A DNA stretch of 32,000 nucleotides. Origin: Candidatus Iainarchaeum sp. Its GTDB lineage: Archaea; Iainarchaeota; Iainarchaeia; Iainarchaeales; JAZDEL01. The notes beneath the pieces are model-generated. The model made no database searches. It was not told where the DNA came from and saw only the letters and a list, made by a program, of their open reading frames with translations. Of the stretch, positions 3,570 to 17,130 are shown one piece after another (the first letter of the stretch is position 1; every line of letters starts with the position of its first letter). The position numbers and the translations under genes are program-made. Where the stretch lies: positions 1 through 32,000 of the forward strand of contig JAZDEL010000009.1 in NCBI GenBank assembly GCA_043808785.1, read 5' to 3'.

Positions 3570-4613
3570 CTAGCCTCCGCAGCCGCAGGAAGCGCCGCAG
3601 CCTCCCGAGGAGCCCCCGCAACTTCCGCCTGCGGAGCCGCCGGAAGCGGCTGGCGGCGAACCATTATTCGCCGTCCCGCCGATTCCCGAAAGGCCTGCAG
3701 TTGCCGTTGCGGAACCGCCAGAACTCGGCCCGCTTACCACGGTTGCCGCGTATGTCTTGAACACTTCGAGCGCGAGTATCTCGCTCTTTGAAGTCTGCTT
3801 AGGGTCGAACGCAACGTCGAAGTAATTCGGCGATTCGAACTTAACCCCCGCAACTCCTGGAATTGTTTTCAGGTCACCTGTGATTAAGGAGGCGTGCCCC
3901 GAGCAGGGTATGTTTACCTGCAGTTTCATTATCGAGTATTGTGCATTTTCCCCCGCGGTTTCCGCGGCAACGTTTCCCGAACCCGCAAGCGCAACCGCCC
4001 CTGTGGGGGTTGCGAACACGCCGGTGTCAAGGTTTGCCAGCATCGGGAACGCGAAAACGAACAGCAGGAGATTGACGCCCATTGTCGAGCCATACATTGT
4101 CGCGAGATAGCCTTTCTTCCTGCTCACGCCGTTCCAGGAAAGCATGCCCTGCTTCCTTAGGTAAAGCGCGGATGAAACAGTTGCGAAAACGAGGGACAGG
4201 GCAATAAGCGCATAGAAGAACCATGCGTTCATCAGCAGCGGCCTGAACAATTGAACCGCAACAGTCACGCCCAGCACCGAGGCGGCGATGAAACCTATGC
4301 ACCCGATATGCGGGGTTAACCCGTAAATCAACCCCTCCTTAAGCGAGGTTTGTGCGGTTGTTTTTGCCTCCGTTTTCGCTTCATGGGCCTGTGAGGGAGC
4401 AATCCCTCCCTCGACCCTGTAGCCCATCTTTGTTATTTCATTCTCTATGTCGCCTCTAGTTGCCTTGCCCGCGTCGAAAAGCACCTTGACATTCTCGTCC
4501 GCATAGCTTGCCTTAACTTCGGCAACGCCGTGCATCCTCGAAACCCTGTCCTTTATCAGTTCCGCGCAGCTGTTGCAGTGCATCCCTTTTACCTTAAGTT
4601 CCGCGTTTTCCAT
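3570..4613 (-). CDS. HMA-domain membrane protein: HMA, about 4 TM helices, a second HMA-like domain, and a Gly/Ser/Cys tail. Putative metal chaperone or transporter.
   Basis: 347 aa. N-terminal GMHCNSCAE ferredoxin-like HMA domain. Hydrophobic core with PHIGCIG. C-terminal domain with IPCSGH in the position of CxxC. Tail ...GGSCGGSSGGCGASCGCGG. GGTGGT SD-like box 5 nt upstream. Lies 70 nt upstream of copA on the same strand. Confidence 0.8.
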   Translation of the reverse strand: MENAELKVKGMHCNSCAELIKDRVSRMHGVAEVKASYADENVKVLFDAGKATRGDIENEITKMGYRVEGGIAPSQAHEAKTEAKTTAQTSLKEGLIYGLTPHIGCIGFIAASVLGVTVAVQLFRPLLMNAWFFYALIALSLVFATVSSALYLRKQGMLSWNGVSRKKGYLATMYGSTMGVNLLLFVFAFPMLANLDTGVFATPTGAVALAGSGNVAAETAGENAQYSIMKLQVNIPCSGHASLITGDLKTIPGVAGVKFESPNYFDVAFDPKQTSKSEILALEVFKTYAATVVSGPSSGGSATATAGLSGIGGTANNGSPPAASGGSAGGSCGGSSGGCGASCGCGG

Positions 4614-5491: not shown

Positions 5492-6496
5492 TTATTTTCC
5501 GTAAATCTTTTTAATCGCTTCCCCGAGGTATTCGGGCTGCGCTATGAAAACGTCCCTCTTCATGTAGCCGTGCCTCGTGAGGACGAGGCCCGTGTTTATG
5601 AGCCCCCTGTATATTTTTTTGCCGTATCCCAGTCCGCCCGCGAGCTTCTGCGCTTTCGCCCCGTGCGCCCCTTCGGAGCCTATGCGCAGGAGGATTTCCG
5701 CAAGGTCCGATGTTGCGCCCTCCCCGAACCTGCCGAGCCCGGCATCGAGCGCCATCCTGAAAACCCTGAGCGTGTAGCTGCCCTCTATTGCAAACCCGCG
5801 CACCTGCTTCTCCGTGATTCGCTTTTTCTCCAGAAGGCCGTTCAGGAAGTCGGCAGCCCCGGGCGGGTTCTCCGCCCTTATTTTGTCCATCGCCTGCTTA
5901 AGGGGGGACACTTCCTCCTTTTTTGCGGGCGCTTCTTTGGTTTCGGCATCCCGCCTGTTGCCGGTTTCCTTTTTCCCCTTCTTTTTCGGCTTTGCTGTGC
6001 GCCCCATCCTTGTTTCCGCGGGAAACCCGCGCAGTGACGCCTTCATGACTCTTGTGTCCCGCCGCCGCAGTTTTTTCAGGTAAATTTTTTCATAGAGCCT
6101 CCATTCGGGGTTGCCCGCAACGTCGAAACGCACGTAGCGGGATGAAAATGTTTCCTTGATTAGGCGCTTGGAAACAGGCAGGTGCCTCATGCGCAGGTAA
6201 TTTTCAAAGTGCTTGGGGAGTTCCGATTTCGCAATCGCCGCGAGCCTTGACGAGATTTTTGCGAACATCCCGCGCCCGGCAGCGGAATAGTTCCTGCTTT
6301 TCGCGCGGAAGTGCGCCTCCACAGCGGCATCGCCCATCGGCTTGCCTCCGCTGCTGCTCTGCAGGTTTGCCCCGCGCACCGCACTCCCGATAAATCTTTT
6401 CTTCGCCTCGAGGCGCCCGCGCATAACCCTTGCGAAATCGTTCGGAAACTTCGCCCTTCTCCCGAGGGGCTTCTTTGCCGCAATTGGCGCCGCCAT
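5492..6496 (-). CDS. Hypothetical protein: two globular regions joined by a Lys/Glu-rich linker
   Basis: The track ORF runs to 6643, but the first ATG (MAAPIAAKK...) is at 6496, about 25 nt downstream of a TATA-like gtttttattc on the minus strand. The composition is protein-like. No family recognised. Confidence 0.55.
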   Translation of the reverse strand: MAAPIAAKKPLGRRAKFPNDFARVMRGRLEAKKRFIGSAVRGANLQSSSGGKPMGDAAVEAHFRAKSRNYSAAGRGMFAKISSRLAAIAKSELPKHFENYLRMRHLPVSKRLIKETFSSRYVRFDVAGNPEWRLYEKIYLKKLRRRDTRVMKASLRGFPAETRMGRTAKPKKKGKKETGNRRDAETKEAPAKKEEVSPLKQAMDKIRAENPPGAADFLNGLLEKKRITEKQVRGFAIEGSYTLRVFRMALDAGLGRFGEGATSDLAEILLRIGSEGAHGAKAQKLAGGLGYGKKIYRGLINTGLVLTRHGYMKRDVFIAQPEYLGEAIKKIYGK

Positions 6497-7239: not shown

Positions 7240-7478
7240 GCAGGGAAGCGGGCAGGCAGCCAACGGTTCTCCGAAAGGATTCGAACTGAGGAAAGTCCGC
7301 CCATCCATTCCAAAATGACGCGCCCGAGAGGGCGTCCCACGGAACAGAAACGATACCCTTCATTGGGCTGAAACGCGCTGTGGGTGGTGGTGTCAAAACC
7401 ACCGGGATGCAAGGCTTCACGCCGCTTAGGCGAATGCTGCCGAAATTACAGAAGGCGGCTTATTGCCCGCAGCCCTGC
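7240..7478 (+). ncRNA. rnpB: RNase P RNA, compact (about 239 nt)
   Basis: CR-I GAGGAAAGUCCGCC (7288-7301). CR-V ACAGAAGGCGGCUUAU (7448-7463). P4 pairing AAG[U]CCGCC : GGCGGCUU includes the conserved bulged U. A CR-II-like GGGCUGAAACGCG is present. The ends close as P1 gcaggg (7240-7245) : ccctgc (7473-7478) and P2 gcgggca (7248-7254) : tgcccgc (7464-7470). Confidence 0.8.
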
Positions 7479-11400: not shown

Positions 11401-12552
11401 ATGCCGCATTTTAACGTGCAGAAAGCAAGGCTGGTTCTCGGGGACGGTTCCTCTTTTTCGGGCATTTCGTTCGGTGCAAATGCTTCTTCCGCGGGCGAGG
11501 TTGTATTCAACACGGGCATGTGCGGATATGAGGATTCGCTTTCAGACCCCTCATATTCGGGGCAGATACTGGTTTTCACATACCCCTTGATAGGTAACTA
11601 CGGGGTAAGGGCGGAGGCACAGGGAAAGTTTGAAATGCGCCTTGCGGGAAAGGGGAACGGCGGCTTCCCGCCATACAAGCTCGACAGGAAATTCTTCATA
11701 AATAATTTCGAGTCCGAGCGCGTGCAGGCTGCGGGGGTTATAGTGGCGTCATATTCTGGCGCCTTTTCGCACCACTCCGCTGAAAAATCCCTCGGCGCGT
11801 GGCTTGAACAGCACGGCGTTCCCGCGATAACCGGCATAGACACGCGCGCGCTGACAAAAAGATTGCGCGAGTGCGGAACGATGCCGGGAAAAATTGAAAT
11901 AGAGGGCGTAAGTGATGTGCGGATATGTGACCCGAATAAAACCAACCTTGTCGCGGGGGTCGGCATAAAGGAGCCAGTGGTTTACGAGAGCGGGAAGCGC
12001 AGCCCCGCGCATGTTGTTGTCGCGGACTGCGGCGTTAAGAACAACATCCTGCGCATGCTGCTTGCCAGAAATCTCAAAGTTACGCGCGTGCCGTGGAATT
12101 ACGATTTCAATTCAATCGAATGCGATGCAATCGTGCTCTCGAACGGTCCGGGCGACCCAAAGATGCTTAATGAAACAATCTCTCACGTGCGCGCCGCGCT
12201 TGCAAAGGAAACCCCGATTTTCGGAATCTGCCTCGGCAACCAGCTGCTTGCGCTTGCAGCGGGCGCGGACACATATAAACTCAAATACGGCCACAGGTCG
12301 CAGAACCAGCCCGTACTTTTGCGGGGCACAAAGAAATGCTTCATAACCTCCCAGAACCACGGTTACGCGGTTAATGAAAAAACCCTGCCCGCGGGCTGGG
12401 AATCATGGTTCACAAATCTGAATGACGGAACGAACGAGGGCATAAGGCACGCCAAAAAGCCCTTCATGTCGGTTCAGTTCCATCCCGAAGCAACTCCCGG
12501 GCCTGTGGATACGGCGTTCCTTTTCGGCGAATTTTTGGGGGCTTTGAAATGA
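11401..12552 (+). CDS. carA: Carbamoyl-phosphate synthase small (glutaminase) subunit
   Basis: 383 aa. Class I amidotransferase triad context (GICLGNQLL, QNHGYAV, SVQFHPEA). Confidence 0.95.
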   Translation: MPHFNVQKARLVLGDGSSFSGISFGANASSAGEVVFNTGMCGYEDSLSDPSYSGQILVFTYPLIGNYGVRAEAQGKFEMRLAGKGNGGFPPYKLDRKFFINNFESERVQAAGVIVASYSGAFSHHSAEKSLGAWLEQHGVPAITGIDTRALTKRLRECGTMPGKIEIEGVSDVRICDPNKTNLVAGVGIKEPVVYESGKRSPAHVVVADCGVKNNILRMLLARNLKVTRVPWNYDFNSIECDAIVLSNGPGDPKMLNETISHVRAALAKETPIFGICLGNQLLALAAGADTYKLKYGHRSQNQPVLLRGTKKCFITSQNHGYAVNEKTLPAGWESWFTNLNDGTNEGIRHAKKPFMSVQFHPEATPGPVDTAFLFGEFLGALK

Positions 12553-13781
12553 GTTTCGCACAGGAAATGTACCCTCTCCCGAAACTATTTAAGCGCGGGC
12601 TGAACTTAATATTCATGGTGCCGCATTTGGATGCCGTAAAATCCGTTCATTTCTGGGATTTGCCCGAAACAACGAGGTTCGTTTTGGACCGAAATTTTTG
12701 TGCCGAACTTTTTGATAAGGCGGCCGGGGGAAGCCTCCGCTCGCTGGCTTCAAAATTGGGCGTTTCTTACCCGCGCGCCTGCCATCTGAGGCGGCCTTTG
12801 TATTCAATCCCTAAAGGCGTCCTGATGTGCCTGATAATTTTGAGTGCCATTGAAAAGGCGGATGTCGAAAATAAAATTATTGAAATAAAAACCCGCTCAG
12901 GAGGCGGTTCCAAAGTTAAATTTCCCATTAACGGCAACAGGGCAATAGCCTCGCTTGTAGGGCACGTTTTCGGTGATGGGTGCATTTATTCGAAAAAACG
13001 GCAGTTCGAATACGGCAATACCAAACCCGAACTTCTGGAATCCGTAATGAAATTGGTCGGCGATGTTTTGTGTGCGGAGCCAATAAGGATTGCCGAAACA
13101 AGGCTTGTTTATTCGGCAATTGTGGGGGATATTTTGCTGTTGTTTGGCGCACCGAAAGCGCCTAAACTGAATTCAGATTCTCCCGTGCCGGAATGGATTA
13201 TGGCCGGCCCGAATGAATTCAAGGCGGCATTTCTCGGGGCTTTGTTTGACGATGACGGTTCAGTTATGTATTCGGAAAAATATGCCGCAAAAGGCATTAA
13301 CCTGTACCAAACAAGGCACGAAAAAAATCTGGATTGCTTGATGCGCCTGATGAGCCAGGTAAAAACTATGCTGTCTGATTTCGGCATACTTGCGGGCAAG
13401 CCTTCCGTAAGCAGGAGTTATTCCAAGCCGGATGGCGCCCATATTGTCGCATATCTGAACGTTACCGACATTGAAAGCATGCGGAAATTTAATGAATCGA
13501 TAGGGTTTGCCCACATTGAAAAAAAAGTGAAATTGGAAAAGATTCTCTCCAGAAAAATAATTTACAGCAAAACCCGCGAAGCCGTGCTGTCGAAAGAAAT
13601 CCTCGGATTTTTGGCGGTGCGCGGGGCATCAACCGCAAAAGTTTCGGAGGCCCTGTCACTCGATAAATCCAAGGCTTTAAAGAAACTTCTCAGGCTTGAA
13701 TCAAGAGGGCTTGTCAGGAGGGCGGGAAGGGCCGCCCCGAACAGGTCTTTTATCTGGCAAACGAGGGAGGTGACATGCTGA
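12549..13781 (+). CDS. Free-standing double-motif LAGLIDADG homing-endonuclease-like protein with an N-terminal HTH-like segment and a C-terminal wHTH
   Basis: 410 aa. Motif 1 is LVGHVFGDG (aa 136-144, nt 12954-12980). Motif 2 is LGALFDDDG (aa 229-237, nt 13233-13259). They are about 93 aa apart and both keep the acidic residue before the final Gly. The C-terminal STAKVSEALSLDKSKALKKLLRLESRGLVRR is wHTH-like. The ATG overlaps the carA stop (ATGA). The stop lies 1 nt before the carB TTG start. Confidence 0.8.
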   Translation: MSFAQEMYPLPKLFKRGLNLIFMVPHLDAVKSVHFWDLPETTRFVLDRNFCAELFDKAAGGSLRSLASKLGVSYPRACHLRRPLYSIPKGVLMCLIILSAIEKADVENKIIEIKTRSGGGSKVKFPINGNRAIASLVGHVFGDGCIYSKKRQFEYGNTKPELLESVMKLVGDVLCAEPIRIAETRLVYSAIVGDILLLFGAPKAPKLNSDSPVPEWIMAGPNEFKAAFLGALFDDDGSVMYSEKYAAKGINLYQTRHEKNLDCLMRLMSQVKTMLSDFGILAGKPSVSRSYSKPDGAHIVAYLNVTDIESMRKFNESIGFAHIEKKVKLEKILSRKIIYSKTREAVLSKEILGFLAVRGASTAKVSEALSLDKSKALKKLLRLESRGLVRRAGRAAPNRSFIWQTREVTC

Positions 13782-13782
13782 T

Positions 13783-16700
13783 TTGAAAACAAAAAACCAC
13801 CCAAAGCCGAAGAAGGTTCTCGTGCTGGGTTCGGGCGGGCTGCAGATAGGGCAGGCAGGCGAAAGCAACTTGTGGTTTCATTGAAACTATAATTGCCGCC
13901 AATTCGACTACTCAGGCAGCCAGGCGATAAAGGCGCTGCGCGAGGAGGGCATAAGCACCGTGCTCATCAACCCCAACATCGCCACAGTGCAGACAGGGAA
14001 GGGGTTCGCAGATAAGGTTTATTTCCTCCCCCTTACGCCCGAATTTGTCGAAAGGGTGATTGCTCGGGAGAAGCCTGGCGGCATACTACTCTCCTTCGGC
14101 GGGCAAACCGCATTGAACTGCGGCCTCGAACTCGAACGCAGGGGCGTTCTGCGCAGGCACGGGGTAAGGGTATTAGGCACGCCTGTGAAGGCAATTGCAC
14201 TCACGGAGGACAGGGAAAAATTCAACAGCGAACTCGGGAGGATAGGGGTTAAGGTGCCGAGCAGCAGCGCTGTAACCACTGTGCCCTCGGCCCTTAGCGC
14301 GGCGGAAAAATTGGGCTACCCCGTGATTGTTCGCGCCGCATTCGCATTGGGGGGCAGGGGTTCGGGTTTTGCGAAAAACAGGGAGGAATTAAGGGGCATC
14401 GCGGGGCGCGCGTTCACGCACTCGAAGCAGATTCTTGTGGAGGAATGCCTGAAGGGCTGGAAGGAAATCGAATACGAGGTTGTGAGGGATGTGCACGGCA
14501 ACTGCATAACAGTTTGCAACATGGAGAACTTCGACCCTTTGGGAATACATACGGGGGAGAGCATTGTTGTTGCTCCCTCGCAGACGCTGAACAACAGCGA
14601 ATACCACATGCTGCGTGAAATCTCGATACGCACGATAAGGCATTTCGGAATAATCGGGGAATGCAACATACAGTTCGCTTTGGACCCGAAAAGCGAGGAA
14701 TACAGGGTTATCGAGGTTAACGCGCGCCTCTCGCGCTCGAGCGCGCTCGCTTCAAAAGCCACTGGTTATCCGCTCGCGTTCGTTGCCGCAAAACTCGCGC
14801 TCGGCTATTCCCTTGCCGAACTTGAAAACAAGGTCACAAGGACAACGAAGGCATGCTTCGAGCCCGCGCTGGATTATATTGTCGTGAAAATTCCCCGCTG
14901 GGATTTGCAGAAGTTCAGGCGCGTTTCAAGGCGCATAGGCACCGAGATGAAGAGCATGGGGGAAGTGATGGCGATAGGCAGGACTTTCGAGGAGGCGATG
15001 CAAAAAGCCATAAGGATGCTTAACACAGGCATGAACGGCCTTGTGTGCAACAGCGTGCATTTCCTGAAACTGCGCAGGAGCATTGCCCACCCCACTGATA
15101 AGAGGATTTTCGCGGTTATAGAGTCTCTTGAGAAGGGTTACGGCATCGACAGGATACACGCGCTGAGCGGCATTGACAGATGGTTCCTCCAGCGCCTTGA
15201 GAATGTGGTTGCGCTGAAGAAGGAAATGGTTAAGGGAAACTGGACAGCGCAGGCAATTCCCGCCGAAGTGCTGCTGCGCTGCAAACAGCAGGGGTTTTCG
15301 GATAAGCAGATTGCAATTTTGCTCCGTGGCGGCGGGGATGCGGGGGCGGGCGCAGACGGCGCGAAAATGCGCGGCTCGCCGGGCGGGGCGCAGGAGGCCG
15401 CGGTGCGCGCGAGAAGGCACGCCCTCGGCCTGCATCCTTTCGCAAGGCAGATAGACACGCTTGCAGCGGAATTCCCGGCGCGCACGAATTACCTTTACCT
15501 CACTTACAACGCAACCGAGGATGATGTAAAATTCCCGCGCGGGAAGAAGGCGCTTGTGCTCGGCAGCGGCGCATACAGCATAGGCTCCAGCGTCGAGTTC
15601 GACTGGTGCTGTGTCGGCGCTGTTAACGCGCTCAAGCGCGCAGGGTTCGGCACGATAATGCTCAACTGCAACCCTGAAACCGTCTCAACGGATTATGATG
15701 TGTGCGACAGGCTCTATTTCGAGGAAATCAGCCTTGAGGCAGTTCTTGAAATTTACGGAAAGGAAAAGCCGCGGGGGGTTGTTGTTTCAGCAGGCGGGCA
15801 GATACCTAACGGCCTTGTGCCGAAGCTCGCGCCCGCGGGAGTAAAAATTTTCGGAACGCCCGCGGAAAGCATAGACCGCGCGGAGGATAGGCATAAGTTT
15901 TCCGCCCTTCTCGATTCCCTTGGGATTGCCCAGCCGGAATGGCGCCAACTCACAACGGAAAAGCAGGCGCTTGAATTTGCAGCGCGCGTTAACTATCCGG
16001 TGCTTGTAAGGCCGAGTTACGTGCTCAGCGGTTCCGCAATGCGCGTTGCTTTCTCCCCCGCGGAACTCTCCTCATACCTGCGGGAAGCCACTTCGGTTTC
16101 TGCCGAGTACCCTGTTGTGATAAGCAAGTTCATCCTCGGCGCAAGGGAGGTTGAAATTGATGCTGTTGCCTCGAAGGGGGAAATGGCGGTTTGGGCGATA
16201 ACCGAGCACGTGGAGAACGCGGGCGTTCACTCAGGGGATGCCACTATGGTTCTCCCTCCCCAGCGCACAAACCTCGAAACCGTGCGCAGGATAAAGCATA
16301 TTGCGAGGCGGCTTGCCTCCTCGCTCCGCATTTCAGGGCCTTTCAATATGCAGTTCCTTGCAAAGGACAACAATGTGCTCGTGATAGAGATGAACCTGCG
16401 CGCCTCGCGCTCGTTCCCGTTTGTTTCGAAGGTTTCCGGCACGGACTTTATCGATGCCGCGGTTTCGGCAATGCTCGGCGCGAAAGCGAAGCACGCAAAT
16501 TCCTCCTCACTCGGGCCTGGCAAGGCGCCGCACACCAACTCATCCTCACTCGAGCTCGACCATGTGGGCGTGAAAGTTCCGCAGTTCTCCTTCTCAAGGC
16601 TGCACGGCGCAGACCCTAAACTCGGGGTTGAAATGGCTTCCACGGGAGAAGTTGCGTGCATAGGCCCTGATTTGGAGGATGCGTTCCTCAAGGCAATGCT

Positions 16701-17130
16701 TTCAGCGGGCTACTCGATGCCCAAAAAGAACATGCTTGTCAGCATTTCAGGGGACAGGAACAGGGAAAAACTGCTTGACGCGGTGAAGGCAGCGGCAGTT
16801 GCAATGCGCCTTAACATATTCGCGACGGAAAATACCGCGCGCTTCCTGCGCGCGAACGGCGTGAAATGCAGGCGCCTGTTCAAGGCTCACGAAAACAAGA
16901 AGCCGAATGTGCTCGGCTACCTGCACAGCGGCAGGCTTGATTTCGCGATATGCGTCCCCGACCCGCAGGTTGCCGCGGAAATGGGCGGCGCATACCTCCT
17001 CAGGCGCGCTGCCGTCGATTATTCAGTCCCCCTTATAACTGATGCCGAGGTCGCAAGGCAGTTCCTGAAGGCGATTTCCGCAAAGAAGCCCGAGGAGCTT
17101 GACATAAGGCCGTGGCAGGAGTATTTCTGA
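13783..17130 (+). CDS. carB: Carbamoyl-phosphate synthase large subunit, interrupted. Exon 1 is 13783..13863 and exon 2 is 13903..17130; the 39-nt insert 13864..13902 must be removed.
   Basis: TTG 13783 is preceded by a strong SD gggaggtga (13765-13773). Exon 1 encodes (M)KTKNHPKPKKVLVLGSGGLQIGQAGE and exon 2 starts FDYSGSQAIKALREEG.... Joined, they rebuild the conserved CarB N-terminus. The track ORF (13960..17130) is an N-terminally truncated call. Both ATP-grasp halves and the MGS-like C-terminus are present. Confidence 0.85.
13864..13902 (+). other. 39-nt intervening sequence in carB with an in-frame TGA and a BHB/BHL-like fold; candidate mRNA mini-intron
   Basis: Sequence agcaacttgtggtttcattgaaactataattgccgccaa, with TGA at 13882-13884. 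Fold: GGCG (13858-61) : CGCC (13897-900), AAA bulge (13862-64), GCAA : TTGC (13865-68 / 13893-96), then a 10-bp stem 13870-79 : 13883-92. Equivalent boundaries are 13862..13900 and 13863..13901. Confidence 0.5.

What the first reader, a model, noticed from the sequence alone, without database searches (positions are those of the whole stretch)
12549..13781. Free-standing double LAGLIDADG endonuclease-like gene with HTH/wHTH domains wedged between carA and carB, 82 nt upstream of the carB insert
Seen in the sequence: the 410-aa ORF has two LAGLIDADG blocks (LVGHVFGDG and LGALFDDDG) with typical spacing, and both catalytic-position Asp residues are kept. It also has an N-terminal HTH-like segment and a C-terminal wHTH. 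It is packed into the operon: its ATG overlaps the carA stop (ATGA) and its stop is 1 nt before the SD-led carB TTG. It is in a different frame from both neighbours and has its own start and stop, so it is not an intein. Established knowledge: LAGLIDADG enzymes are the homing endonucleases of archaeal BHB introns, group I introns and inteins, and they target highly conserved host motifs. Some have become splicing maturases or DNA-binding regulators. Inference: this gene and the nearby mini-intron may be two parts of one mobile or ex-mobile element. The ORF may have been expelled from the intron, or it may be a domesticated maturase or regulator. The uninterrupted GQAGEFDYSG-coding DNA could be its cleavage site, with the 39-nt insert conferring immunity. 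A BHB-type mRNA intron linked to an external LAGLIDADG gene has not, to my knowledge, been described.
Basis: partly seen in the sequence, partly recalled or inferred. Interest (0 to 1): 0.72.

Follow-up and report, generated by a model that had tools for sequence, protein, structure and literature searches.

The report
Mobile endonuclease gene paired with carB mini-intron
The gene between carA and carB of this DPANN archaeon is a real, intact LAGLIDADG homing-endonuclease gene, and comparison with related genomes shows it has moved between lineages in one DNA block with the start of carB and its tiny mRNA intron, a pairing not previously described in archaea.

Summary
The ORF at 12549-13781 encodes a 410-aa protein with an N-terminal helical HTH-like domain, two LAGLIDADG domains that keep both catalytic Asp residues, and a C-terminal MarR-like winged helix (Pfam, AlphaFold pLDDT 89.6, Foldseek).

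It belongs to a family named only from DPANN archaea. All 19 distinct loci of its carB-linked clade have the ORF directly upstream of carB. In all 19, carB carries a 17-39 nt insert at GQAGE|FDYSG that folds as a relaxed bulge-helix-bulge motif with covariation.

Three DPANN relatives without the ORF lack the insert too. One of them has CarB 91% identical to the window's. One relative has the insert but no ORF.

The ORF shows far less synonymous divergence than the flanking carA and carB. In one pair the recently shared tract runs through the ORF, carB exon 1, the intron and about 95 nt of exon 2.

The intron alone is widespread in Nitrososphaerota and occurs in Thermoplasmata, so it does not need the ORF.

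Best reading: a free-standing homing endonuclease gene that moves together with the intron ("collaborative homing"). The cleavage site is inferred, not shown. Regulator and maturase readings are disfavoured.

The parts
11401..12552 (+). carA (carbamoyl-phosphate synthase small subunit). Its TGA overlaps the ORF's ATG.
   Evidence: Pfam CPSase_sm_chain and GATase; sequence.
12549..13781 (+). Free-standing LAGLIDADG homing-endonuclease gene, 410 aa.
   Evidence: An identical protein in NCBI is auto-named 'LAGLIDADG family homing endonuclease [Candidatus Diapherotrites archaeon]'.
12675..12869 (+). N-terminal helical, HTH-like domain (aa ~43-107).
   Evidence: AlphaFold helices H48-59, H63-70, H74-81, H89-99 and H103-107 at pLDDT >90. 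Only a sub-threshold DUF2089-HTH hit. The block is conserved in homologues.
12939..13202 (+). LAGLIDADG domain 1 (aa ~131-218). Motif LVGHVFGDG is at 12954-12980 and catalytic D143 at 12975-12977.
   Evidence: Model secondary structure; D143 and G144 invariant.
13212..13547 (+). LAGLIDADG domain 2 (aa ~222-333). Motif LGALFDDDG is at 13233-13259 and catalytic D236 at 13254-13256.
   Evidence: Pfam PF14528 E=4.8e-11; model; conservation.
13569..13763 (+). C-terminal winged helix-turn-helix (aa ~341-405), MarR-like.
   Evidence: Model H341-357, H362-368, H373-385 and strands 389-396, 400-405. Foldseek hits to ZitR, MarR and CzrA. Weak TrmB, IclR and HosA hits. This domain is absent from the type II subgroup of homologues.
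13766..13773 (+). Shine-Dalgarno GGAGGTGA for carB, embedded in the last codons of the ORF.
   Evidence: Sequence. A GGAGG 7-10 nt before the carB start is seen in L001, L002, L003 and L006.
13783..13863 (+). carB exon 1 (TTG start ... GQAGE).
   Evidence: Translation; homologous 5' ends in all related loci.
13864..13902 (+). 39-nt bulge-helix-bulge-type mini-intron in the carB mRNA. Layout: GGCG (13858-13861), bulge AAA, inner helix GCAA...TTGC, CGCC (13897-13900), bulge AAT.
   Evidence: The insert carries an in-frame TGA. The MFE fold shows the motif, z=-2.6. Same site in 73 distinct sequences with covarying pairs. It is absent from close relative L208.
13903..17130 (+). carB exon 2 (FDYSG ... 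end).
   Evidence: Pfam CPSase_L domains.

Best explanation
The ORF is a free-standing LAGLIDADG homing-endonuclease gene (HEG) lodged at the 5' end of carB. It forms one mobile cassette with the carB start and the bulge-helix-bulge (BHB) mini-intron 82 nt downstream.

Shown:
- The protein has an intact double-LAGLIDADG fold with both catalytic Asp residues, flanked by two extra DNA-binding-type domains.
- It uses the operon for expression. Its start overlaps the carA stop, and its last codons carry the SD for a new carB start.
- Its family is under purifying selection, yet it is far younger at synonymous sites than the genes around it.
- Very different ORF variants sit in nearly identical hosts.
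- Alleles lacking both the ORF and the intron exist in close relatives.
- In one genome pair the recently shared tract covers the ORF, exon 1, the intron and about 95 nt of exon 2.

Inferred mechanism:
1. The enzyme cuts intron-less carB DNA at or near the GQAGE|FDYSG-coding site.
2. Only about 85 nt of homology lies between that site and the HEG. Repair from an occupied allele therefore copies the intron and the HEG together.
3. The intron splits the recognition site and protects the carrier genome.
4. The intron itself is removed from the mRNA by the cell's own splicing endonuclease, not by this protein.
For: Fold and catalytic residues.

Synteny: carA-ORF-carB, or ...-ORF-carB, in every member with at least 35% identity.

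ORF implies intron: 19 of 19 distinct loci.

Naive alleles with neither ORF nor intron:
- L208: CarA 89% and CarB 91% identical to the window, same carA-carB-leuS synteny.
- L210: Woesearchaeota; by CarB identity it sits among ORF-bearing lineages.
- L211: Nanoarchaeota.
For the table 19/0 versus 1/3 my hand calculation gives a Fisher p of about 0.002. This ignores phylogenetic non-independence.

Horizontal movement:
- The proportion of synonymous differences (pS) is 0.30-0.57 for the ORF against 0.66-0.80 for flanking carA and carB, in seven genome pairs. ORF dN/dS is 0.16-0.21.
- L131 versus L136: CarA 88%, CarB 90%, ORF 46% identical.

Shared tract: in L003 versus L136 there are 3-4 differences in about 235 nt, running from the ORF 3' end through the intron to about +95. 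Identity then falls to about 70-78%.

ORF loss with the intron kept: in L091 carA ends '...KEVSN*'. That resembles ORF C-termini and carries the same SD, followed by TTG-carB with a 39-nt intron.

Family behaviour:
- Paralogues sit directly upstream of psmA, alaS, leuS, radical-SAM and Mrp/ParA genes.
- Relic copies of the target gene's first ~20 codons lie upstream of the ORF in L006/L135 (carB) and in L198 and L009 (alaS).
- The ORF has been replaced in near-identical psmA hosts.
Against: No biochemical evidence of cleavage exists, and the target site is inferred only.

The intron is fixed in many Nitrososphaerota and occurs in Thermoplasmata without any such ORF. The intron therefore does not depend on the ORF, and the DPANN co-occurrence could partly reflect tight linkage.

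Only four ORF-less DPANN loci were examined.

Within the window's own lineage the ORF and intron look vertically inherited. Intron identity between the window and L091 is about 85% by eye, similar to host divergence. L208 would then be a loss, not a naive ancestor.

The exon 1-intron segment is also unusually conserved between hosts that carry different ORF types (90-93% in L131 versus L136). Part of the 'shared tract' signal may therefore be constraint.

Relic 5' ends stop at GSG[SA]|, 24 nt upstream of the intron site. This hints at a different break point.

Paralogues at psmA and alaS show no intron, so immunity in this family does not generally need one.
Confidence: 0.6

Rival explanations
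1. A mobile homing-endonuclease gene whose target is not the intron insertion site. The target could be the carA/carB junction or carB codon ~20 (GSGA|LKIG). The intron would then be a bystander, co-inherited only because it lies 82 nt away.
For: Relic carB 5' ends in L006/L135 and in P0024 stop exactly at GSG[SA]|. L005 and L130 carry a second mini-insert at that same point. The alaS paralogues show the same ~20-codon relic without any intron. ORF types I and II are swapped between hosts whose exon 1-intron segments stay alike. The intron is common without the ORF.
Against: No ORF-bearing locus lacks the intron, in 19 distinct lineages whose ORFs are down to 35% identical and which span two carB clades. 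All three ORF-less loci found through carA lack it. Simple linkage would be expected to break at least occasionally over that depth.
Confidence: 0.2
2. A domesticated, WhiA-like DNA-binding regulator of carB or the car operon that no longer cuts DNA.
For: The architecture resembles WhiA: HTH-like domain, LAGLIDADG scaffold, C-terminal winged helix. Foldseek hits 8dy9_I and 3hyj at E 5e-6 to 1.5e-4. dN/dS of about 0.17 shows lasting purifying selection. The position in the operon is fixed.
Against: Catalytic Asp/Glu is kept in 23 of 24 homologues, whereas WhiA has lost these residues (the WhiA point is from my own knowledge). Close relatives differ in presence or absence of the ORF. ORF synonymous divergence is far below that of flanking genes, and the phylogenies are incongruent. 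Paralogues carry relic target 5' ends at unrelated housekeeping genes. Type II members lack the winged helix altogether.
Confidence: 0.08
3. A decaying or inactive selfish remnant, fixed after invasion and no longer functional.
For: Homing endonuclease genes commonly degenerate after fixation. One homologue (P0007) has Gly at the second catalytic position. L091 appears to have deleted the gene.
Against: The reading frames are intact in all loci seen. dN/dS is 0.16-0.21. The model is confident and well folded. Catalytic residues are conserved.
Confidence: 0.07
4. A maturase-like cofactor that helps the carB mRNA fold or be spliced at the BHB motif.
For: Some LAGLIDADG proteins are group I intron maturases; bI3 maturase 2ab5 is among the Foldseek hits. 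The ORF strictly co-occurs with the intron.
Against: The same intron is maintained in more than 80 genomes without the ORF: Nitrososphaerota species, three Thermoplasmata/Euryarchaeota MAGs and L091. BHB introns are cut by the cellular splicing endonuclease (established knowledge). The accessory domains are DNA-binding types.
Confidence: 0.03

Closest known systems
Collaborative homing of a free-standing endonuclease gene and a neighbouring ORF-less intron (F-CphI next to the psbA group I intron of cyanophage S-PM2; the Bonocora & Shub model). F-CphI is mentioned in PMC6083498; the rest is from my own knowledge.
   Same: The endonuclease gene lies outside but next to a short ORF-less intron in a highly conserved gene. 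Intron-less, HEG-less alleles exist. The HEG and the intron are inherited together. The intron is proposed to split the recognition site.
   Different: This case is in archaeal chromosomes, not phage. The intron is a 17-39 nt BHB intron cut by a protein enzyme, not a self-splicing group I intron. The enzyme is a LAGLIDADG protein with extra HTH and winged-helix domains. Cleavage has not been shown.
Archaeal intron-encoded LAGLIDADG endonucleases (I-DmoI, I-PorI, I-Tsp061I, PDB 2dch).
   Same: A single-chain double-LAGLIDADG fold (Foldseek E=2e-7), in an archaeal host, associated with a BHB-type intron.
   Different: Those ORFs lie inside rRNA introns. This one lies outside the intron, in a protein-coding operon, and has two additional DNA-binding-type domains.
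Intein-associated LAGLIDADG endonucleases (PI-PfuI 1dq3, TliVMA 7qsu, PI-SceI).
   Same: They are the best structural matches (E 8e-9 to 7e-7) and also use an extra DNA-recognition region.
   Different: There is no Hint splicing domain. The ORF has its own start and stop and a different frame from both neighbours.
WhiA (PDB 3hyj, 8dy9).
   Same: A LAGLIDADG scaffold with a C-terminal helix-turn-helix.
   Different: WhiA lacks the catalytic acidic residues and is a vertically inherited bacterial regulator (my own knowledge). Here the residues are kept and the gene moves horizontally.
Mobile endonuclease ORFs that carry a replacement end of the host gene (the Allomyces atp6 element and other mitochondrial free-standing HEGs). 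From my own knowledge.
   Same: Insertion close to a gene end, with a duplicated end. One copy is functional and one is left as a relic (L006, L198, L009).
   Different: Here the 5' end is replaced, with a new SD and start codon, rather than the 3' end. The hosts are archaeal chromosomes.
The cbf5 pre-mRNA BHB intron of Crenarchaeota (PMC2738675).
   Same: A short BHB-type intron in an archaeal protein-coding gene, with patchy gain and loss.
   Different: A different gene and different phyla, and no associated endonuclease gene has been reported for cbf5.

Membership tests
LAGLIDADG homing endonuclease superfamily (single-chain, two-motif type) | Two LAGLIDADG helices at the interface of two alpha-beta-beta-alpha-beta-beta-alpha domains. 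| tested here: met
   Motifs at aa 136-144 and 229-237. Model elements H131-141/E/E/H160-174/E/E/H190-198 and H222-236/E/E/H258-276/E/E/H308-317. PF14528 E=4.8e-11 for domain 2. Foldseek hits to PI-PfuI, I-Tsp061I and PI-SceI.
LAGLIDADG homing endonuclease superfamily (single-chain, two-motif type) | An acidic catalytic residue at the end of each motif. | tested here: met
   D143 is invariant. D236 is Asp or Glu in 23 of 24 homologues.
LAGLIDADG homing endonuclease superfamily (single-chain, two-motif type) | Site-specific double-strand cleavage of a long DNA target. | not testable with these tools
   Needs purified protein and substrates.
Homing (mobile) endonuclease gene | Presence/absence polymorphism at one locus among close relatives. 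| tested here: met
   L208 has CarB 91% identical to the window and lacks the ORF. L210 and L211 lack it. L091 shows an apparent deletion scar.
Homing (mobile) endonuclease gene | A phylogeny or divergence incongruent with the flanking host genes. | tested here: met
   ORF pS 0.30-0.57 against 0.66-0.80 for carA and carB. ORFs are 46% identical in hosts that are 88-90% identical. The psmA paralogues show the same pattern.
Collaborative homing (free-standing HEG plus adjacent intron) | The HEG lies outside but adjacent to an ORF-less intron, and the two are co-inherited. | tested here: met
   The gap is 82 nt in the window. 19 of 19 ORF-bearing loci have the intron. The L003/L136 shared tract includes both.
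Collaborative homing (free-standing HEG plus adjacent intron) | The endonuclease cuts the intron-less allele at the intron insertion site, and the intron confers immunity. | not testable with these tools
   The pattern is only consistent: there is no ORF+/intron- genome, while ORF-/intron+ and ORF-/intron- genomes both exist.
Intron-encoded archaeal endonuclease | The ORF is located inside the BHB intron. | tested here: not met
   The ORF ends 82 nt before the 39-nt intron. No convincing BHB could be drawn for a long intron that would enclose the ORF in L006.
Intein | An in-frame insertion in the host protein with Hint splicing blocks. | tested here: not met
   The ORF has its own ATG and TGA and a different frame. 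There is no Hint or intein Pfam hit. The N-terminal domain is helical.
WhiA-type domesticated LAGLIDADG regulator | A degenerate LAGLIDADG scaffold without catalytic acidic residues, vertically inherited. | tested here: not met
   Catalytic residues are conserved, and there is evidence of horizontal movement.
Bulge-helix-bulge intron (for the carB insert) | Two 3-nt bulges on opposite strands separated by a 4-bp helix, with symmetric splice sites that restore the reading frame. | tested here: met
   In 73 distinct sequences the central helix is 82-100% paired, including GC-to-CG swaps. Inner helix positions 1-4 are 93-100% paired with four pair types. The bulges are AAA/AGA and AAT/AGT/ATT/TAT. 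Cutting after the second bulge nucleotide gives GAR|TTC. The outer helix is only 1 bp, so the motif is the relaxed form.
Bulge-helix-bulge intron (for the carB insert) | Excision from the transcript by the splicing endonuclease, followed by ligation. | not testable with these tools
   No transcript data are available. Splicing is implied because most inserts shift the frame or carry stop codons in an essential, otherwise intact gene.

The most novel reading that the evidence does not exclude
This would be the first archaeal case of 'collaborative homing'. An ORF-less BHB intron in a protein-coding mRNA would be mobilised at the DNA level by an external LAGLIDADG endonuclease gene parked beside it. 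It would also explain how the same mini-intron reached an identical site in carB of Nitrososphaerota, Thermoplasmata and several DPANN lineages. The wider HTH-LAGLIDADG-wHTH family would be a DPANN-specific class of endonuclease genes that colonise the first ~20-30 codons of housekeeping genes and bring a replacement 5' end.
Probability: 0.4. Interest if true: 0.9.

Novelty: new variant of a known kind. Interest (0 to 1): 0.8.

Why it matters
Archaeal BHB introns are thought to move only when they carry their own endonuclease gene, as in rRNA introns. In the papers I could search, cbf5 was the only archaeal protein-coding gene reported to have one.

Three things follow from this locus:
- It points to a second, much more widespread mRNA intron, in carB. 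Carriers include named ammonia oxidisers with complete or isolate-derived genomes, such as Nitrosotalea devanaterra and Nitrosotenuis chungbukensis.
- It offers a concrete, testable route by which ORF-less mini-introns could spread.
- It identifies a family of endonucleases with long composite DNA-binding surfaces that target conserved gene starts.

It also has a practical consequence. Gene callers truncate carB or mark it as a pseudogene in these genomes, which distorts metabolic reconstructions of DPANN and Thaumarchaeota.

Tried and rejected
1. I tested whether the ORF in L006 sits inside a long BHB intron running from the relic exon 1 to exon 2. I scanned all equivalent cut positions. The best candidate had 3 of 4 central pairs, which is no better than chance over 65 positions.

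2. The conserved 'CACTGGACA...TATTTAAA' block upstream of many ORFs looked like a DNA or RNA element or a promoter. It reads through as an N-terminal peptide (TTGHWTS..V.Y[IL][KN]) in frame with the ORF in most loci, so I treat it as coding. The window ORF lacks it.

3. Large gaps between carA and the intron in some Nitrososphaerota suggested extra insertions or a carA intron. One (L076) shows a single extra G in carA, and L033 and L070 show similar frame breaks in translation; none shows an insert.

4. I looked for introns in the alaS genes downstream of paralogues (L009, L198). The 5' regions read through uninterrupted.

5. I looked for relic 5' ends in the other paralogue loci, including the psmA group. 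None was detected at E<0.05.

6. Literature searches for a carB BHB intron, and for LAGLIDADG genes in DPANN or beside carbamoyl-phosphate synthase, found nothing relevant.

7. The second mini-insert at GSGA| in L005 and L130 could not be drawn as a canonical BHB with frame-restoring symmetric cuts. The central helix has only 2-3 pairs (and hand analysis).
Full report
**1. What is in the window.**

The window comes from a DPANN archaeon. An identical protein in NCBI is labelled 'Candidatus Diapherotrites archaeon', and an archaeal RNase P RNA lies at 7244-7474.

carA runs from 11401 to 12552. The ORF in question runs from 12549 to 13781 (410 aa). Its ATG overlaps the carA stop. Its last codons contain GGAGGTGA (13766-13773), 9 nt before a TTG at 13783 that opens carB.

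carB reads KKVLVLGSGGLQIGQAGE. It is then interrupted by 39 nt (13864-13902) that contain an in-frame TGA, and it resumes with FDYSGSQAIKAL.

**2. The protein.**

- Pfam places LAGLIDADG_3 on aa 223-319 (E=4.8e-11).
- An AlphaFold model built on 24 homologues is confident (pLDDT 89.6, pTM 0.80). It shows a disordered N-terminus (aa 1-27), a helical HTH-like bundle (aa ~43-107), two alpha-beta-beta-alpha-beta-beta-alpha domains headed by LVGHVFGDG and LGALFDDDG, and a C-terminal winged helix (aa ~341-405).
- The best Foldseek matches are intein endonucleases (TliVMA, PI-PfuI, PI-TkoII, PI-SceI) and the archaeal intron enzyme I-Tsp061I. WhiA and the bI3 maturase follow. The C-terminus matches MarR-type winged helices.
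- D143 is invariant. D236 is Asp or Glu in 23 of 24 homologues.
- There is no intein splicing domain.

**3. The family and its context.**

The protein search found 33 relatives at 28-50% identity. Every one that a source names is from DPANN: Woesearchaeota, Nanoarchaeota, Ainarchaeum or Diapherotrites.

Every relative with at least 35% identity for which DNA or gene calls were available lies directly upstream of carB. Usually it sits between carA and carB. In one case carA is followed by three other genes before the ORF.

Two types exist. Type I has the winged helix. Type II lacks it, and its last codons overlap the carB start.

More distant paralogues (25-33% identity) sit directly upstream of other housekeeping genes. 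At least 12 loci have psmA plus SBDS downstream. Others have alaS, leuS, radical-SAM genes, Mrp/ParA ATPases, an aminotransferase or a nucleotidyl transferase.

**4. The carB insert is a real, conserved BHB-type intron.**

In all 19 distinct ORF-bearing loci, carB is interrupted at exactly GQ/EAG/AE|FDYSG by 17-39 nt. The insert usually shifts the frame or contains stop codons.

A tighter filter found 89 loci that are carB with such an insert. They are mostly Nitrososphaerota. Among them are Ca. Nitrosotalea devanaterra and Ca. Nitrosotenuis chungbukensis, Nitrosopumilaceae MAGs, and Nitrososphaera and Nitrosocosmicus MAGs. There are also three Thermoplasmata/Euryarchaeota MAGs and five DPANN loci.

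Across 73 distinct sequences the layout is constant:
- a 4-bp helix made of the last exon bases and the intron 3' end (GGCG/CGCY, with a GCCG/CGGC swap);
- a 3-nt bulge (AAA or AGA);
- an inner helix whose first four pairs are 93-100% paired through GC, CG, TA and AT variants;
- a second 3-nt bulge (AAT, AGT, ATT or TAT).

Cutting after the second bulge nucleotide on both sides restores GAR|TTC. The outer helix is only 1 bp, so this is the relaxed form of the motif. The window's insert folds this way (z=-2.6).

I found no paper describing this intron. A 2025 paper on archaeal splicing endonucleases cites only the cbf5 papers for introns in archaeal protein-coding genes.

**5. How the ORF and the intron are related.**

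*The intron does not need the ORF.* In Nitrososphaerota and Thermoplasmata the carA stop lies about 41-68 nt before the motif, which leaves no room for an ORF. A profile search of all loci found the ORF only in DPANN-type loci.

*Within DPANN the two go together.*
- All 19 distinct ORF-bearing loci have the intron.
- The three ORF-less operons I reached through carA have neither. L208 has CarA 89% and CarB 91% identical to the window, the same carA-carB-leuS order and an ATGA overlap of carA and carB. L210 is a Woesearchaeota contig. L211 is a Nanoarchaeota contig.
- By CarB identity, L208 is nested between the window and L091, and L210 is nested among ORF-bearing Woesearchaeota. The pattern therefore involves at least two independent events.
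- One contig (L091, Iainarchaeum) has the 39-nt intron but no ORF. Its carA ends '...KEVSN*', which resembles ORF C-termini and carries the same SD before the TTG start. It looks like a deletion scar.
- No genome has the ORF with an uninterrupted carB.

**6. Evidence that the ORF moves.**

- Hosts whose CarA and CarB are 80-90% identical carry ORFs only 46% identical. Examples are L131 versus L136 and L002 versus L003.
- Where ORFs are alike, they are much younger than their surroundings. The proportion of synonymous differences (pS) is 0.30-0.57 in the ORF against 0.66-0.80, near saturation, in carA and carB. This holds in seven pairs. ORF dN/dS is 0.16-0.21.
- In L003 versus L136 the near-identical tract starts at the ORF. 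It continues through the carB start, exon 1 and the intron, and ends sharply about 95 nt into exon 2. At least in that pair, the ORF and the intron were exchanged as one piece.
- The psmA paralogues show the same incongruence. In L156 versus L192, psmA is 94% and SBDS 95% identical, but the ORF only 35%.

**7. Footprints of insertion.**

In L006/L135 a second copy of the carB start lies between carA and the ORF. It reads MKQEDKIVKPKKVLVLGSGS, then SQK and a stop. Its ATG overlaps the carA stop, and its own stop overlaps the ORF's ATG. It differs from the functional downstream copy at nearly every synonymous site.

P0024 begins MSIPKKVLLLGSGA fused to the ORF; no DNA was available for that locus.

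The alaS paralogues show the same thing. L198 has MFTKESLKKKFS... and L009 has MALEKKELRAMFAKDWQKYYN* upstream of the ORF.

The family therefore inserts within the first ~20-30 codons of its target gene and supplies a new SD, start codon and 5' end. In the window the insertion is clean, lying between the carA stop and the carB start. Comparison with L208 shows this.

**8. Interpretation.**

The most economical reading is a free-standing homing endonuclease gene that is, or recently was, mobile, and that travels with the carB 5' exon and the mini-intron.

The presence/absence pattern has three of the four possible states. ORF+/intron+, ORF-/intron+ and ORF-/intron- all occur, but ORF+/intron- never does. 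This is what is expected if the enzyme cuts intron-less carB near the insertion site and the intron protects the carrier. That is the logic of collaborative homing described for phage group I introns.

This step is inference. The relic ends and the second mini-insert at GSGA| (L005, L130) leave open a cut site 24 nt upstream. Tight linkage alone could explain part of the co-occurrence.

A regulator or maturase role is unlikely, for the reasons listed under the rival explanations.

**9. Caveats.**

- Most data are MAGs or metagenome contigs. L091 and L209 come from one MAG and probably represent two strains.
- Synonymous distances for the flanking genes are saturated, so the contrast is qualitative.
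- Only four ORF-less DPANN loci were seen.
- No transcript or enzyme data exist.

Noticed in passing
window 13864-13902; L010-L128 (e.g. L093 Ca. Nitrosotalea devanaterra LN890280.1, L033 Ca. Nitrosotenuis chungbukensis): The carB mini-intron at GQ/EAGE|FDYSG is not a DPANN oddity. They are mostly Nitrososphaerota, including named ammonia oxidisers with complete or isolate-derived genomes, plus three Thermoplasmata/Euryarchaeota MAGs. Lengths are 17-39 nt, and the BHB pairs covary. I found no paper describing it.
   Followed up: yes
L005 ~7349-7379; L130 ~4170-4203: A second mini-insert (31 and 34 nt) interrupts carB at GSGA|VKIG, 24 nt upstream of the main intron. This is exactly where the relic carB 5' ends of L006 and P0024 stop. 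It has a long inner hairpin, but I could not draw a canonical BHB with frame-restoring cuts.
   Followed up: partly
L006/L135 2605-2675; L198 2661-2730; L009 ~5813-5880: Relic copies of the first ~20 codons of the downstream gene (carB or alaS) lie upstream of the LAGLIDADG ORF. In L006 the relic's own stop overlaps the ORF start (ATGA). The relic differs from the functional copy at almost all synonymous sites.
   Followed up: partly
L144-L207 (e.g. L154, L156, L192, L198, L200): Distant paralogues of the ORF (25-33% identity) sit immediately upstream of psmA+SBDS, alaS, leuS, radical-SAM, Mrp/ParA, aminotransferase and NTP-transferase genes. In near-identical psmA hosts (L156 and L192) the ORFs are only 35% identical.
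   Followed up: partly
L091 (reverse strand, first ~150 nt in gene orientation); L209 4570-4769: Two contigs of one Iainarchaeum MAG (GCA_043820655.1) show different states. One has carA followed by the ORF. The other has carA ending '...KEVSN*' plus SD plus TTG-carB with the 39-nt intron and no ORF. This looks like an ORF deletion scar, or two strains binned together.
   Followed up: partly
L002 5870-5900, L003 6010-6040, L006 2675-2710 and others: Many family members carry an N-terminal extension with the motif TTGHWTS..V.Y[IL][KN], encoded by ...ACCACTGGACACTGGACATC.... The window ORF and its closest relatives lack it. Its function is unknown.
   Followed up: partly
L002 7219-10240; L003 7234-10439; L005 7303-10669: In three NCBI assemblies no gene is called over the ~3 kb carB region. 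This is probably because the intron makes carB look like a pseudogene. In other assemblies carB is called from an internal start and loses its first ~45 residues.
   Followed up: no
window 7244-7474 (+): Archaeal RNase P RNA (Rfam RF00373, 107.7 bits). No tRNA genes were found in the 32-kb window.
   Followed up: no
L008, L140, L143 versus L116, L025: A second, divergent carB clade (GQAAE type, with a GCCG/CGGC central helix) also carries the intron. Some members have the ORF (L008, L140, L143) and some do not (Thermoplasmata L116, L025). The same intron site is therefore occupied in carB lineages only 45-55% identical to the window's.
   Followed up: partly
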